64,000 nucleotides of DNA, from the NCBI RefSeq assembly GCF_003918875.1, contig NW_025767151.1:744001-808000 (forward strand), in the 5' to 3' direction. This document shows positions 9,132-14,632 of the stretch, piece after piece. The position numbers and the translations under genes were made by a program. Every line of letters starts with the position of its first letter. Position 1 is the stretch's first letter. Under the pieces are notes generated by a model. It saw only the letters and a list, made by a program, of their open reading frames with translations. It ran no database searches and was not told the origin of the DNA. The stretch comes from Haliotis rubra (Eukaryota).

Positions 9132-9244
9132 AGTAGTATATACAATGGGGCTACGGGACCAGGGCCCCCCAAGGGCTTAATTTAAAAATGAAATAAAAAA
9201 TGAGCCCTTGGGAAGTCCTAAGCCCCATTTTGTATACTACTACT
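9132..9244. repeat. Imperfect 113-bp hairpin with AGTAGT...ACTACT ends at the edge of the viral segment
   Basis: Left arm agtagtatatacaatggggct...cccaagggct. Right arm reverse complement agtagtagtatacaaaatggggct...cccaagggct. Confidence 0.8.
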
Positions 9245-9506
9245 GACTTGCATGCAAAATTTGATGAAAATCGGTCGAACAGTTTCTGAAATATTTGACT
9301 TTTAAGCGAGCATGGGGTTGGTCGGGAAAAAAGGCTCGGGTCGCCTGGGGTGGTGGTTGCTCCTCCGAGCGCTGTTGGCGGACGAGTCGCAGTGCGTGTG
9401 GGTGTGCCTCTCCCGGCTTGGTGTACGGATGGCTGCCTGGCTGGCTACATTCAGCAGAAAAATAGGCATGCAAGACTGATAAAAAAATCATGACGAGAAA
9501 CTATCA

Positions 9507-9770
9507 TCACATGGTGGGTGATGTGTAAGGAACTGTGTCGTGAGGTACGATCATCAACTCCTCTGATGAAAATGCTCTCGGTGGTCCGTCTTTCAAATAG
9601 TACAAGGTCGGTTCGCCGTCTTTGATGTCGAGAAGGTCTACGTTGTACGTTTTCATGGACCATATCGGATCGGTGGCGCGCTTTCTGCTGTCTCCCTCAT
9701 ATTCTCCCGGCTGGTACAAGTACCTAACGCTGACACGGTCCAGTAATGTTTTCTCTGTTATATCAGGTAC
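9507..9770 (-). pseudogene. C-terminal fragment of a Polinton-like (retroviral-type) integrase
   Basis: VRYLYQPGEYEGDSRKRATDPIWS...LYYLKDGPPRAFSSEELMIVP resembles the post-core tail of integrases in invertebrate Polinton-like elements (from memory). The DDE core is missing. Confidence 0.5.
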
Positions 9771-9771
9771 G

Positions 9772-10102
9772 ACAGCATTCTCGTTTTTTAACCGTCTCCT
9801 TGTTGGCGCTGCAGTCGTCCAGGATGAACACCCTAGTGTTAAGCGTGCAACCAGTCCTGCAGACGAATTCCAGGATCGATTTTGTGCACGTCAGGGTCCG
9901 TCATCACCCACGGTCTCTCCGTGTACGTCTTGTTCACCTGTAAAGTCGGGCAGAGAATGACGATGTGGTCGAACACGTTGCGATAGTATCCTTCCAGCAT
10001 GTTCAGCATGAAAGCCGTCTGGCCACACCCCGTCTGACCGCACACGATGGCGCAGTGGGGGTCGCAAGGTAAATCAATAAATGGCTTGCTCGAATCTTCC
10101 AT
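9772..10102 (-). pseudogene. A32/FtsK-HerA-type DNA packaging ATPase, N-terminal half
   Basis: Degenerate Walker A (AIVCGQTGCGQT, K>Q), then HIVILCPT, and after a frameshift Walker B VFILDD (9814-9831). Truncated by deletion. Confidence 0.75.
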
Positions 10103-11404: not shown

Positions 11405-12563
11405 ATGGCGGACGATATTCCCATGGACGATTTCGACGTACACCAGCTGAACAACGACGATGATGCAGCAGCAGCCATGGACACCTCGTTCATGGGGAAC
11501 ACCGTGGGCAACGAGCTTTAAAAACAGTCTGTGGACGAGTATTACAATGCTTTCAAGCGCAAGACAAATTACGTCGAAACATTGGGTCGCGGCTATCCGA
11601 AGTTCAAAATCGACAACGAAGGGACGTTGTGATTGAAAGCTTATCCGGAGGTTGATCTCATGAACAAACGCATGAGAAAACCGCTTGCCCTGTCGGCGCT
11701 AGCCAGTCATGGTGGTGGTAGTCAACTTCCGCCGAAGGTCGTCCGAGATCTGCAAAATGTAAGGACCGAACTCAGTGGTGCTGGCGCTGCCAATCCGAGA
11801 GAAATGCCCCAGAGCGCCAAAGAAGTGTCGGACGAAATCGAAAAAATATTGGTCACGTACTCGAACGAACCCTTGCCCGGTTTCGAATTTCCTCTTATGG
11901 AACTTCGGGGTCTAGACAAAGCCTTGACAAACGTGCACAGAGAACTCGTGAACAACATGGGTAAACTGAACGAAATCGACGAGCACATCACTCGCGAGAA
12001 AAGAAAACTCAGGATAGTGGACGACGACGACGAAGCCATGAAAAACATCATTGAGAAAAGATTGCGCAACCTGGAAGCCGAGAGACGGACCAGATTGGAA
12101 GTCGCTTCCTCCAACCGGGAAGACCCCCGATCACAAATTAGGCGCGTGCGTGAAACCATAGACCAAGTCTTGAATGAGGACACCACGTTGGCCGACAGGA
12201 TCCTAATTCTGTTCCGGGAACAAGGAATCACCATCACCAGCGTTCTCACGGCTTTGGGCTTCATCATATCGACCCTGGTCGTGTTGCTGACGGGGGGTGG
12301 TGGCACACCACCAAGCCCATCATCATCAGGCGACGACGTCAGATACTGGATCAAAAAAACATTTGAAATCTCTCGGCGAAGCCCTGGCGAAACTGGCCGG
12401 CATAGCCGCCGAAGCGCTGCCTGGCATCTTGGGCAGCATCGTTTCCGGGTTGTAAGGCTTCTTCTGCAAAACCGTCATGTGTCTCGGTCAAAACCTGTGG
12501 GCTTTCATCGTCACTGCGGTGGGTCTGATGTACGTCGCGGTTAAGCAATTTGTAACCAAATGA
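11405..12563 (+). pseudogene. Viral coiled-coil protein with C-terminal hydrophobic/amphipathic helices
   Basis: ATG at 11405 is in frame with ORF 11633 (two stops between). A long charged coiled coil is followed by GITITSVLTALGFIISTLVVLLTGGGG. After a frameshift at ~12357: KSLGEALAKLAGIAAEALPGILGSIVSGL*...LWAFIVTAVGLMYV. Confidence 0.65.
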
Positions 12564-13167
12564 GGCACAGTCCAACCACGATCCCGCCGACCACCAACGC
12601 AGTTTTGCGATGGACATGCCGCTGATTGTTTGCCTGAACGTGCGGGGGCAGCTGCTGCTGTTGTTGTGGTGGTGCTACTTCTACTTCCTGTGTGGGTACC
12701 ACGATGCCCGTTTCCTACTGCGACACAACTCGACTCGTGTCGAGTGACGTCCACTCTGTTCACCCTCAGTCGTATGTCGCTCGGAGCCATGTACAGTTCC
12801 GCACCGAACACGTAGTCGACTTTCGACCGGGCGTATTCCAGCGCGTCATAGCGTTCAATGGCACTCGGTAGATCGACCGGTCTAGCAATGGCATCCTCGA
12901 CATTAGCCACGAATTGTTTCTGCGCGTCATAGGCCGTCCCTTCATGACCCACGATGCTGGAACGCGTTTGCGTCTGAGCACCCAGCACGGCCCACACATA
13001 CGTACTGTTTTCACATTCGTGACCGAAAACCTGTAATTTTTAAACACGTCAATGAACCGAACCATGAAATGTAAACCATCCTTTGCATTGACCACAATAC
13101 TCGGTTGCGTGAGATAGGTAGCACTTTTATTGTCAGTTTTAGAATAAAACACTCCCGGTTTGTACAT
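12541..13167 (-). pseudogene. Viral protein of unknown function with C-terminal TM anchor
   Basis: MYKPGVFYSK..., frameshift or deletion, TYVWAVLGAQTQTRSSIVG...LEYARSKVDYVFGAELYMAPSD, then a T/A-rich linker and a frameshifted tail KTALVVGGIVVGLCLIWLQIA*. Confidence 0.55.
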
Positions 13168-13209
13168 ATTTGAATTGTTATATTTTAGTATACATATCTA
13201 CTTTTCAAT

Positions 13210-13860
13210 ATGTACGTGACGCTTCCGGGAATCACGAGCGACGAGTCCATTCAACTGCTGCACGCGATCGATAAGTCGCGCTCTGCGATATCACCTACTA
13301 CCCGCGATGGACCAGCATCAACGGTAAAAACAACAGGCTGTTCGTCAATAACGCCCACAACCAAATAACGGACGGCTACTACAGCGTGTGCTCGCTTCAA
13401 ACCCGTGGGAGCTGAACTCAAAATGAACGACTCGAACGGCACGGTCATGTTAGCCAACAACAGAAAAAACGACTTGAGACTCAGTCGGCCGTTGGCTAAA
13501 ACGCTCGGGTTTACGTCAAACGACATACCACCGGAAACAACCGTGACAGGCACGAAATTACCCGATCTCGTTCAGTATCATGAACTGTGCATTCATCTCA
13601 ATCAGTTGAGCACGACCGACAACTTTCAAGGCGAACGACCTTCCACACTGCTAAGAGCCGTGCCTGTGAAAACGGAAAAGTACAACGACGCCAGAACCGA
13701 ATCGTTTTCGTTGCGGCATTACAAGAAATTAATCCGAAGCAACATCACGGAATTGAAAATATCGGTTTTAGATGTTAAACACGATCCCGTAAGTATAATA
13801 TATCTCAGCGCGACGCTGCACATGGTCCAGGAACACGCATTAGAAAATACACCAACATAG
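13210..13860 (+). pseudogene. Putative single jelly-roll minor capsid (penton) protein
   Basis: MYVTLP..., (fs) ALCDITYY...ITDGYYSV..., LAKTLGF...LCIHLNQL...PSTLLRAVPV...YKKL...ITELKISVLD...ATLH. This fits the Polinton penton motif order (GxY, LGF, LLRxxP, YxxL, terminal LH). Confidence 0.7.
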
Positions 13861-14632
13861 CAATCTCCGACCTCGGGGACACATGCGGATTCCACGAACC
13901 CCGAGTCGACGGCAAACTGTACGCCTTGCAACTGAAAAACAGAATTTACAAACGCGTCGACCTAGGCGATTTCGTTGATACCGAAGGAGCGGTCAACAAC
14001 ATGCGATACGACCTGAACTGCAACGACGAAGACGAATGGACAATAACCCCAGCGTTCCACGGCAGGCTGTTCCACCCGGACGACGTCGAGGTCACGGCCA
14101 TCTCCAGAAACACGCAGTACATTCTCATCTTCAACAACGACAACAAATGGGTATCAGTGCCATCCAAAATCGACTGGAATCTTAACATCACGCTCGACTC
14201 TCCCCACGTTTTCACGGACAAGAAAGATCACTACCTGACGAAAGTCGTGAACAACGGAACGCTTCTCGTGGCTTACGTCCCTATGCAAAGACGCAGCATG
14301 ATCGTCAGCACGTTGAGGCAAAGAGTAGCCCACATGCTGTCGAGCAAACCCGGGACGCAAAACGTGGGATTGCAGATGGTGTTGGAATTCGACAACGTGG
14401 TAGATGTCCTGGAAAATCTGCCAGCAAAATCCACGCTGTACATCCAAGTCTACCTTGGCGAACCGCCGTCGGCGCGTGACGTCGTCGAAATCGTAAAAAA
14501 AGAGTATATATACAGGATGGGAATGTACCCAGTCGTGGATGAAGTAGCAAAAACACTGGAAACCGTAGACGGGTTTCGTTTGCAACAGATATGTGAGATC
14601 AAACAACAATTAAAACGTGAACGCGATACATC
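13822..14632 (+). pseudogene. Viral ORF(s) of unknown function; the last ~40 codons (MYPVVDE...FRLQQICEIKQQL) are probably the truncated start of a separate gene
   Basis: The 248-aa ORF (13926-14672) extends upstream in frame to ~13829 and has the same composition as the other viral genes. It runs out across the insertion boundary. Confidence 0.5.

What the first reader, a model, noticed from the sequence alone, without database searches (positions are those of the whole stretch)
9132..14632. Endogenous Polinton-like virus with a capsid module interleaved with two membrane-protein genes
Seen: a 5.5-kb GC/CpG-rich intronless block of butted or overlapping ORFs in divergent/convergent arrangement. 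The order is <-integrase tail, <-ATPase, <-MCP, coiled-coil/TM->, <-TM-anchored protein, penton->, ORF->, truncated ORF->. Short AT-rich spacers separate the divergent starts (11364-11404, 13168-13209). Established: ATPase + MCP + penton + retroviral-type integrase is the Polinton/Maverick/adintovirus morphogenesis module. Inference: two membrane proteins between MCP and penton are not in the canonical core set, so this may be a poorly described invertebrate polintovirus lineage with a lipid-containing virion or its own entry machinery. This copy is dead (stops, frameshifts, deletions).
Basis: partly seen in the sequence, partly recalled or inferred. Interest (0 to 1): 0.88.

Follow-up and report, generated by a model that had tools for sequence, protein, structure and literature searches.

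The report
Dead copy of protease-free animal Polinton
This is a broken, partly deleted copy of a virus-like mobile element found many times in an animal genome; its family has no detectable maturation protease and carries five or six predicted membrane proteins, which likely help build or deliver a lipid-containing virus particle.

Summary
Observation confirmed; interpretation partly supported. Window 9132-14629 is a decayed copy of a multi-copy Polinton-type family. Sister copies supply what it lost: rve integrase, protein-primed PolB, terminal inverted repeats starting AGTAGT, and a 5-bp (not 6-bp) target duplication in 9 of 14 two-ended copies. The two membrane genes are not quirks of this copy: they are conserved, with the same order in 6 metagenome contigs, and the full element has three or four more predicted membrane genes. 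No adenain protease was found in 56 family stretches or 40 metagenome loci. The capsid protein does not match the canonical Polintons of the same genome but, by eye, matches Nematostella Polinton-3_NV, a published protease-minus element with a PLV-like capsid outside Groups I/II. So the lineage is known but barely described. New here are its gene set, a tail-anchored 419-aa protein with a confident helical, non-jelly-roll model, and a 110-nt terminal hairpin. A lipid-containing virion is inferred, not shown.

The parts
9132..9330 (+). Left terminal inverted repeat (about 200 nt) starting AGTAGT; its first 110 nt (9132-9241) is an imperfect palindrome (hairpin)
   Evidence: same repeat at both ends of sister copies
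9507..9763 (-). C-terminal remnant of rve integrase
   Evidence: 69% identical to residues 243-317 of a 324-aa sister protein with Pfam rve E 1.4e-10
9764..9764 (.). Junction of a 4.7-6.4 kb internal deletion (rest of integrase, pPolB, three or four small genes, end of ATPase)
   Evidence: blastn against sister copies; gene content of sisters
9764..10102 (-). A32-like packaging ATPase, N-terminal half, truncated
   Evidence: 71% identical to residues 1-99 of a 216-aa sister protein with Pox_A32 E 7.9e-9
10074..11363 (-). Major capsid protein, Polinton-3_NV-like; broken by stops (near 11323, 11227, 10360) and frameshifts (near 11180, 10732)
   Evidence: covers residues 2-419 of a sister protein; Capsid_N E 0.002-0.007; 1635 homologs, one named major capsid protein by UniRef; motifs shared with P3_NV
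11364..11404 (.). AT-rich spacer between divergent starts; likely bidirectional promoter
   Evidence: sequence; function inferred
11405..12563 (+). Coiled-coil protein with central and C-terminal hydrophobic helices (385 aa in sisters); broken by stops and a frameshift near 12356
   Evidence: at least one hydrophobic segment in 19 of 19 long homologs
12544..13167 (-). Tail-anchored protein X419 (419 aa in sisters); core lost at about 13003, smaller loss at about 12752
   Evidence: residues 7-65, 252-335 and 369-419 present; C-terminal hydrophobic segment in 101 of 137 homologs; AlphaFold2 model of a sister protein
13168..13209 (.). AT-rich spacer between divergent starts; likely bidirectional promoter
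   Evidence: sequence; function inferred
13210..13860 (+). Likely minor capsid protein (penton), frameshifted near 13330
   Evidence: 57% identical to a 217-aa sister protein; weak profile match to canonical pentons of the same genome, E 8e-4, probability 24, against E 0.11-0.68 for control pairs
13815..14498 (+). 304-aa gene in the slot after the penton, end deleted; predicted vertex spike by position
   Evidence: 61% identical to residues 3-232; the same slot holds a tail-fibre-repeat protein in a metagenome relative (PHROG E 1e-25), but the two are not homologous
14517..14629 (+). Start of a 205-aa predicted membrane protein; the element breaks off here
   Evidence: 67% identical to residues 1-43; homology ends at 14629

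Best explanation
The locus is a decayed, internally deleted copy of a multi-copy Polinton-type element whose family has no detectable maturation protease, likely belongs to the Nematostella Polinton-3_NV/N1_NV branch, and likely used its conserved predicted membrane proteins to build a lipid-containing virion. Shown: full-length sisters are about 14-15 kb, bounded by terminal inverted repeats and mostly by 5-bp target duplications, and carry rve integrase, protein-primed PolB, A32 ATPase, capsid protein and the two membrane genes in a fixed order. From established knowledge: the integrase inserts the linear genome, PolB copies it from its ends, the ATPase pumps DNA into a double-jelly-roll capsid. 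Inferred: with no protease to mature a protein core, the particle is built around an inner membrane, as in PRD1-type viruses (recalled); X419 would sit in that membrane by its C-terminal helix with a folded 350-aa domain facing the capsid, and the coiled-coil protein would be a membrane-penetration or scaffolding protein. This copy makes nothing. Odds: Polinton-type and dead 0.97; protease-free lineage 0.85; P3_NV branch 0.8; lipid-containing virion 0.45.
For: Many relatives in the genome: 40 of 40 scored loci match at DNA level and 102 of 102 scored loci match the coiled-coil protein. Sisters carry rve, DNA_pol_B_2 and Pox_A32 above Pfam cut-offs. Exact 5-bp duplication in 9 of 14 two-ended copies, 6-bp in 0 of 14. 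A profile from four adenain-like proteases of other Polintons in this genome finds 5 of 6 control elements at E below 1e-22 and nothing better than E 0.49 in 56 family stretches and the window, and nothing at E 1 or below in 40 metagenome loci. Order penton, X419, coiled-coil, capsid, ATPase is kept in 6 metagenome contigs. X419 has 1089 homologs, a C-terminal hydrophobic segment in 101 of 137 and an N-terminal one in 0 of 137, against 0 of 57 capsid proteins with any; its model (pLDDT 88.8) is a helical domain, a linker and a terminal helix. Seven short motifs seen in P3_NV occur in 30-53 of 57 family capsid proteins and 0 of 5 canonical ones. P3_NV and N1_NV are listed as protease-minus.
Against: No particle, lipid or transcript was shown. 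The capsid and penton folds were not predicted here; their names rest on weak profile hits and on the P3_NV comparison, which was made by eye with motifs chosen afterwards. Four of the five detected control proteases built the profile, one control element (C69) had none, and a very divergent protease could be missed; only 6 of the 40 metagenome loci are 10 kb or longer. In three distant relatives (L144, L148, L149) the 205-aa gene, not the coiled-coil gene, lies upstream of the capsid gene. Membrane proteins in related viruses have been read as lysis, entry or defence factors instead. Hydrophobicity was scored with a simple window, not a topology predictor.
Confidence: 0.6

Rival explanations
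1. Same element, but the virion is naked: the membrane proteins act in entry (a capsid-borne membrane-lytic protein), in exit (pores or budding) or on host and co-infecting viruses, like the GasderminX, Cupiennin, SLATT and holin-like genes already reported.
For: Three classes of membrane-active proteins are reported in adintoviruses and holin-like and SLATT genes in relatives. The coiled-coil protein ends in hydrophobic helices with a stretch that resembles adenovirus pX (recalled), as described for GasderminX.
Against: X419 has a conserved C-terminal anchor and no N-terminal signal, which fits a resident membrane protein; both genes share divergent starts with the capsid and penton genes, and this is conserved. 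Adintovirus reference proteins were not visible in the supplement, so identity with GasderminX or Cupiennin is untested.
Confidence: 0.3
2. It is an ordinary Group I or II Polinton (adintovirus) that has secondarily lost its protease.
For: It has pPolB, rve integrase and AGTAGT ends like canonical Polintons; its pPolB is 31-42% identical to that of a protease-bearing element in the same genome.
Against: The capsid profile does not find a canonical capsid protein of the same genome (hhalign probability 0.3); the ATPases form a separate long-branched group; cnidarian capsid proteins of this kind fall outside Groups I/II in print. No Group II reference was at hand, so that part is untested.
Confidence: 0.08
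3. The family spreads only as a transposon and the structural and membrane genes are passengers.
For: pPolB was in pieces in every family copy examined; no virion is known.
Against: Capsid, ATPase and membrane genes stay open and in order across many distant hosts at 45-65% protein identity.
Confidence: 0.02

Closest known systems
Polinton-3_NV and Polinton-N1/N1A/N1B_NV of Nematostella vectensis (PMC4028283 supplements 1 and 4; PMC4642659 supplement passages)
   Same: 14-16.5 kb, capsid protein and ATPase present, protease absent; capsid and ATPase motifs match by eye along the length; capsid regarded as PLV-like and outside Groups I/II.
   Different: Capsid match is distant, not near-identical. 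The membrane genes, target duplication and terminal hairpin of the Nematostella elements were not described in what I read and could not be compared. Host here is not established; named relatives are molluscan.
Canonical Polintons/Mavericks/adintoviruses (Polintoviricetes, Groups I and II)
   Same: pPolB, rve integrase, A32 ATPase, capsid and penton genes, terminal repeats with (AGT)2 ends; target duplication within the published 5-8 bp range.
   Different: No detectable protease; capsid not recognisable against the canonical type in the same genome; 5-bp duplication against 6 bp in vertebrate Mavericks; no Pfam chromodomain on the integrase; different accessory genes.
Polinton-like viruses (Aquintoviricetes)
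   Same: Minimal capsid, penton and ATPase module without protease; some octocoral, hydrozoan and bivalve ATPases are reported as closest to this class.
   Different: Most lack rve integrase and infect protists; this family has pPolB plus rve and sits in an animal genome. Placement against their profiles was not testable.
PRD1-type tectiviruses (recalled)
   Same: Protein-primed PolB, A32-like ATPase, no maturation protease, many small membrane proteins and an inner membrane (recalled).
   Different: Bacterial hosts, no rve integrase; no homology of X419 or the coiled-coil protein to their proteins was shown. Analogy only.

Membership tests
Polinton/Maverick (genome type) | Protein-primed family B polymerase | tested here: met
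   Deleted in the window copy; DNA_pol_B_2 E 3.9e-10 in a sister copy, present in the gap in several sisters
Polinton/Maverick (genome type) | rve integrase | tested here: met
   Pfam rve E 1.4e-10; window keeps the C-terminal part
Polinton/Maverick (genome type) | Terminal inverted repeats and 5-8 bp target duplication | tested here: met
   Repeats at both ends of sisters; exact 5 bp in 9 of 14; window has only the left end
Polinton/Maverick (genome type) | A32/FtsK packaging ATPase | tested here: met
   Pox_A32 E 7.9e-9 and 3.9e-10
Polinton/Maverick (genome type) | Double-jelly-roll major and single-jelly-roll minor capsid proteins | tested here: inconclusive
   Capsid_N E 0.002-0.007, below cut-off; P3_NV motifs; penton profile match E 8e-4; neither protein was folded
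Polintoviricetes Group I/II, adintoviruses | Adenain-like maturation protease | tested here: not met
   0 of 56 family stretches and 0 of 40 metagenome loci; 5 of 6 control elements found; no peptidase family in 71 frames
Polintoviricetes Group I/II, adintoviruses | Capsid protein recognisably similar to the Beta (Group I) type | tested here: not met
   No hit against the protease-bearing elements of the same genome, taken as Group I by their gene content
Polintoviricetes Group I/II, adintoviruses | Capsid protein recognisably similar to the Alpha (Group II) type | not testable with these tools
   No named Alpha reference came from any call
Adintoviruses (10.1101/2024.03.25.586562) | Integrase with C-terminal chromodomain | tested here: inconclusive
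   No Pfam chromodomain at E 0.1 on a 324-aa frame; the last 80 residues are unassigned
Adintoviruses (10.1101/2024.03.25.586562) | PolB with N-terminal OTU domain | not tested
   Pfam found Rho_N, Endonuclease_7 and DNA_pol_B_2 only; no dedicated search
Polinton-3_NV / N1_NV branch | P3_NV-type capsid protein and ATPase | tested here: inconclusive
   Clear by eye and by seven after-the-fact motifs; no scored alignment or tree with the reference
Polinton-3_NV / N1_NV branch | No protease | tested here: met
Aquintoviricetes (PLV) | Capsid and ATPase cluster with PLV profiles | not testable with these tools
   Profiles lie in preprint supplements that are closed; no relative found in viral contigs

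The most novel reading that the evidence does not exclude
A widespread, unnamed lineage of animal viruses that joins a Polinton replicon to a protease-free, PLV-type capsid built around an inner membrane, with X419 as a membrane-to-capsid linker of a possibly new fold and self-complementary genome ends: the animal virus closest in design to the tectivirus-like ancestor of Polintons.
Probability: 0.3. Interest if true: 0.78.

Novelty: new member of a known kind. Interest (0 to 1): 0.5.

Why it matters
Polinton virions have not been seen, and whether the membrane of their bacterial ancestors survived in any eukaryotic descendant of this size is open (recalled). A protease-free animal lineage with a fixed set of membrane genes and more than a thousand database homologs gives concrete markers for finding such particles in marine invertebrate viromes and for placing the animal elements that fall outside Groups I/II. 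The locus itself is only a fossil.

Tried and rejected
Fold searches with the X419 model: no chain at Z 5 or more among 48,161 PDB representatives, no Foldseek match at E 0.001 in BFVD or PDB; the model is over 400 residues and the top rows were the terminal helix, so this does not show a new fold. Sequence searches of PDB, Pfam and PHROGs gave nothing for X419 or the coiled-coil protein beyond coiled-coil noise. ESM Atlas lead to Peptidase_M15 for X419 (score 0.81, lead only) is not supported by the mostly helical model; no usable hit for the coiled-coil protein. X419 as a second capsid protein: rejected. Capsid plus X419 complex: no answer, alignments not used, no evidence either way. The coiled-coil protein, capsid protein and penton were not folded. 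Flip-flop of the terminal hairpin as in parvoviruses: not seen, at most 1 of 30 ends and that one lacks a second arm. Genome search with PF00770 found nothing although such proteases exist in the genome, so it is uninformative. No relatives in viral contigs. Sequencing runs: a younger-subfamily stretch is held in runs of four coded organisms, two of them at small shares; three runs guessed to be RNA have contigs over 29-30 of 30 bins, but RNA is a guess and no silent control was laid, so transcription is not shown. CpG decay: transitions at 0.18 of CpG-context against 0.11 of GpC-context sites, a weak hint of methylation only. Motif look-up for GasderminX and Cupiennin failed because the supplement is cut. 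Earlier findings: none shown.
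Full report
Observation. Its left end, 9132, is the element's terminus: matches of this stretch elsewhere in the genome start at that base, give or take one, in most of 40 scored loci. The window lies in a 1.38-Gb animal genome; the host was not established. The two N runs of the window are far from the finding. Window pieces alone give only weak Pfam hits, so I used natural sister copies.

A multi-copy family. A 2.4-kb window stretch matched all 40 loci scored out of 1978 candidates, the long matches at 75-90% identity. 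A homolog of the coiled-coil protein matched 102 of 102 scored loci out of 3478 candidates. A 32-base end pattern occurs 109 times, its control 0 times. These are lower bounds, not copy numbers. Mapping on 56 fetched stretches gives one order for elements of about 14-15 kb: repeat, integrase, pPolB, 141-aa, 66-79-aa and 301-aa genes, ATPase, capsid protein; then divergently the 385-aa coiled-coil gene; convergently X419; divergently penton, 304-aa and 237-aa paralogs, a 205-aa gene, repeat. Integrase, polymerase and ATPase pass Pfam cut-offs.

The window copy. It has lost 4.7-6.4 kb at about 9764, about 60 and 550 bases within X419, 0.9-1.1 kb at about 14498 and everything after about 14629, including the right repeat. 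Remaining genes carry stops and frameshifts. It is dead. Its subfamily is the older of two.

Ends. Of 14 copies where both ends were visible, 9 have an exact 5-bp target duplication, 2 a 5-bp one with one mismatch, 2 a 4-bp match and 1 none; none has 6 bp. Copies with one visible end were left out. Polintons are reported with 5-8 bp, vertebrate Mavericks with 6 bp, so this marks the family without being new. The first 110 nt form a hairpin.

No protease. Other Polintons in this genome carry adenain-like genes. A profile of four of them found 5 of 6 control elements, and each single sequence found the other three at E 2e-8 or better, but nothing passed E 0.49 in the 56 family stretches or the window, and nothing reached E 1 in 40 metagenome loci, 6 of them 10 kb or longer. 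Pfam found no peptidase in all 60 frames of 70 aa or more of one full-length copy and 11 of 55 frames of another. A very divergent protease is not excluded.

The membrane genes are core genes. X419 has 1089 homologs and 2844 representatives at 50% clustering; the coiled-coil piece has 42 in a length-limited search; the capsid protein has 1635, the named ones from Elysia, Mytilus and two bacterial bins. In 40 metagenome loci, mostly short, the coiled-coil gene was found in 15 and X419 in 8, and the order penton, X419, coiled-coil, capsid, ATPase is kept in 6; two loci are rearranged and three distant ones have the 205-aa gene next to the capsid gene. A hydrophobic segment lies in the last 35 residues of 101 of 137 X419 homologs and 15 of 19 coiled-coil homologs, and in 0 of 57 capsid proteins. 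The 205-aa and 141-aa genes pass the same threshold in 5 of 5 metagenome relatives, the 301-aa gene in 4 of 4 (a fifth was read in the wrong frame and dropped) and the 66-79-aa gene in 3 of 5. So the element has five or six predicted membrane proteins among about 13 genes. AlphaFold2 gives X419 a confident model (pLDDT 88.8, pTM 0.83): a mostly helical 350-aa domain, a proline-rich linker and a terminal helix at 392-417; it is not a jelly roll.

Placement. The family's capsid profile does not recognise the capsid protein of the protease-bearing elements, and their ATPases sit apart on long branches in a 28-row tree without named references. The printed alignment of Nematostella Polinton-3_NV capsid protein with PBCV-1 VP54 matches this family by eye from end to end; seven motifs chosen afterwards occur in 30-53 of 57 family proteins, 0 of 5 canonical ones, and three read in the window's own frames. 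The ATPases of Polinton-3_NV and N1_NV share the family's motifs. Those elements are listed as protease-minus. Later work notes that cnidarian capsid proteins fall outside Groups I/II, that Nematostella Polintons have a PLV-like capsid, that some octocoral, hydrozoan and bivalve ATPases are closest to Aquintoviruses, and that chimeras of adintovirus-like replicons and other capsids exist. The branch is therefore known. Seven literature searches showed no description of its gene set, but the library lacks Repbase reports and most subscription papers, and preprint supplements with the reference profiles are closed.

Mechanism. Integration by rve, end-primed replication and ATPase-driven packaging follow from established knowledge of Polintons. 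The role of the membrane genes is inferred. Absence of a protease, which has been likened to the tectivirus ancestor, five or six membrane genes, a conserved tail anchor without signal peptide, and shared divergent starts with the capsid and penton genes make an inner-membrane virion the single most likely reading (0.45). Entry, exit or defence roles on a naked virion are the main rival, with precedent in GasderminX, Cupiennin, SLATT and holin-like genes.

What I read. PMC8502044: parts 2-3 of 6 and part of a cut supplement. PMC4028283: passages, supplements 1 and 4 whole. PMC4642659: passages and supplement passages. 10.64898/2026.06.19.733378: passages, sections 5 and 7. 10.64898/2026.10.13.758929: passages, section 13. 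10.1101/2023.10.06.561300: passages, sections 6-7. 10.1101/2024.03.25.586562: passages, section 16. PMC10120064, PMC8097293, PMC11071308, 10.1101/2023.08.22.554363: passages only. PRD1 architecture and the adenovirus pX likeness are recalled.

Verdict. A fossil of a real but under-described protease-free animal Polinton branch: a new member of a known kind, with an undescribed membrane gene set that is worth following. Interest 0.5.

Noticed in passing
window 9132-9241; L059-L078, L013, L016: The first 110 nt of the terminal repeat is a hairpin. In 15 of 20 loci where my pattern found it, 14 read from the outer end and their arms match at 19-24 of 24 bases; some copies change both arms together (L076, L016, L013), which suggests the arms were kept alike during replication. 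The younger subfamily keeps only an inner stem. One literature search (listing only) showed no paper on this.
   Followed up: partly
G000, e.g. L041-L058, L091-L098: A younger subfamily (57-75% protein identity to the window pieces) has terminal-repeat pairs 95-100% identical against 91-97% for the window's subfamily (3 pairs each); its pPolB was in pieces in all copies examined.
   Followed up: partly
L099-L116: The same genome holds several protease-bearing Polinton families; one (C1606) joins a pPolB related to this family's with a different capsid module.
   Followed up: partly
L120:944-2218: In a metagenome relative the gene after the penton is a phage tail-fibre-repeat protein; this slot is variable across the lineage.
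   Followed up: partly
P0172, P0203: Two capsid homologs are filed under Candidatus Thiodiazotropha metagenome bins; likely carry-over from the animal host.
   Followed up: no
L054-L055: One copy carries three extra tandem partial repeats of the capsid-ATPase stretch.
   Followed up: no
window 26001-32000: G-rich tract of about 6 kb with GC skew about 0.8, ending at an N run.
   Followed up: no
window 15965-16891: LINE reverse transcriptase fragment (RVT_1 E 3.5e-13), unrelated to the element.
   Followed up: no
window about 6000-7160: Tandem repeat of about 480 nt seen by eye.
   Followed up: no
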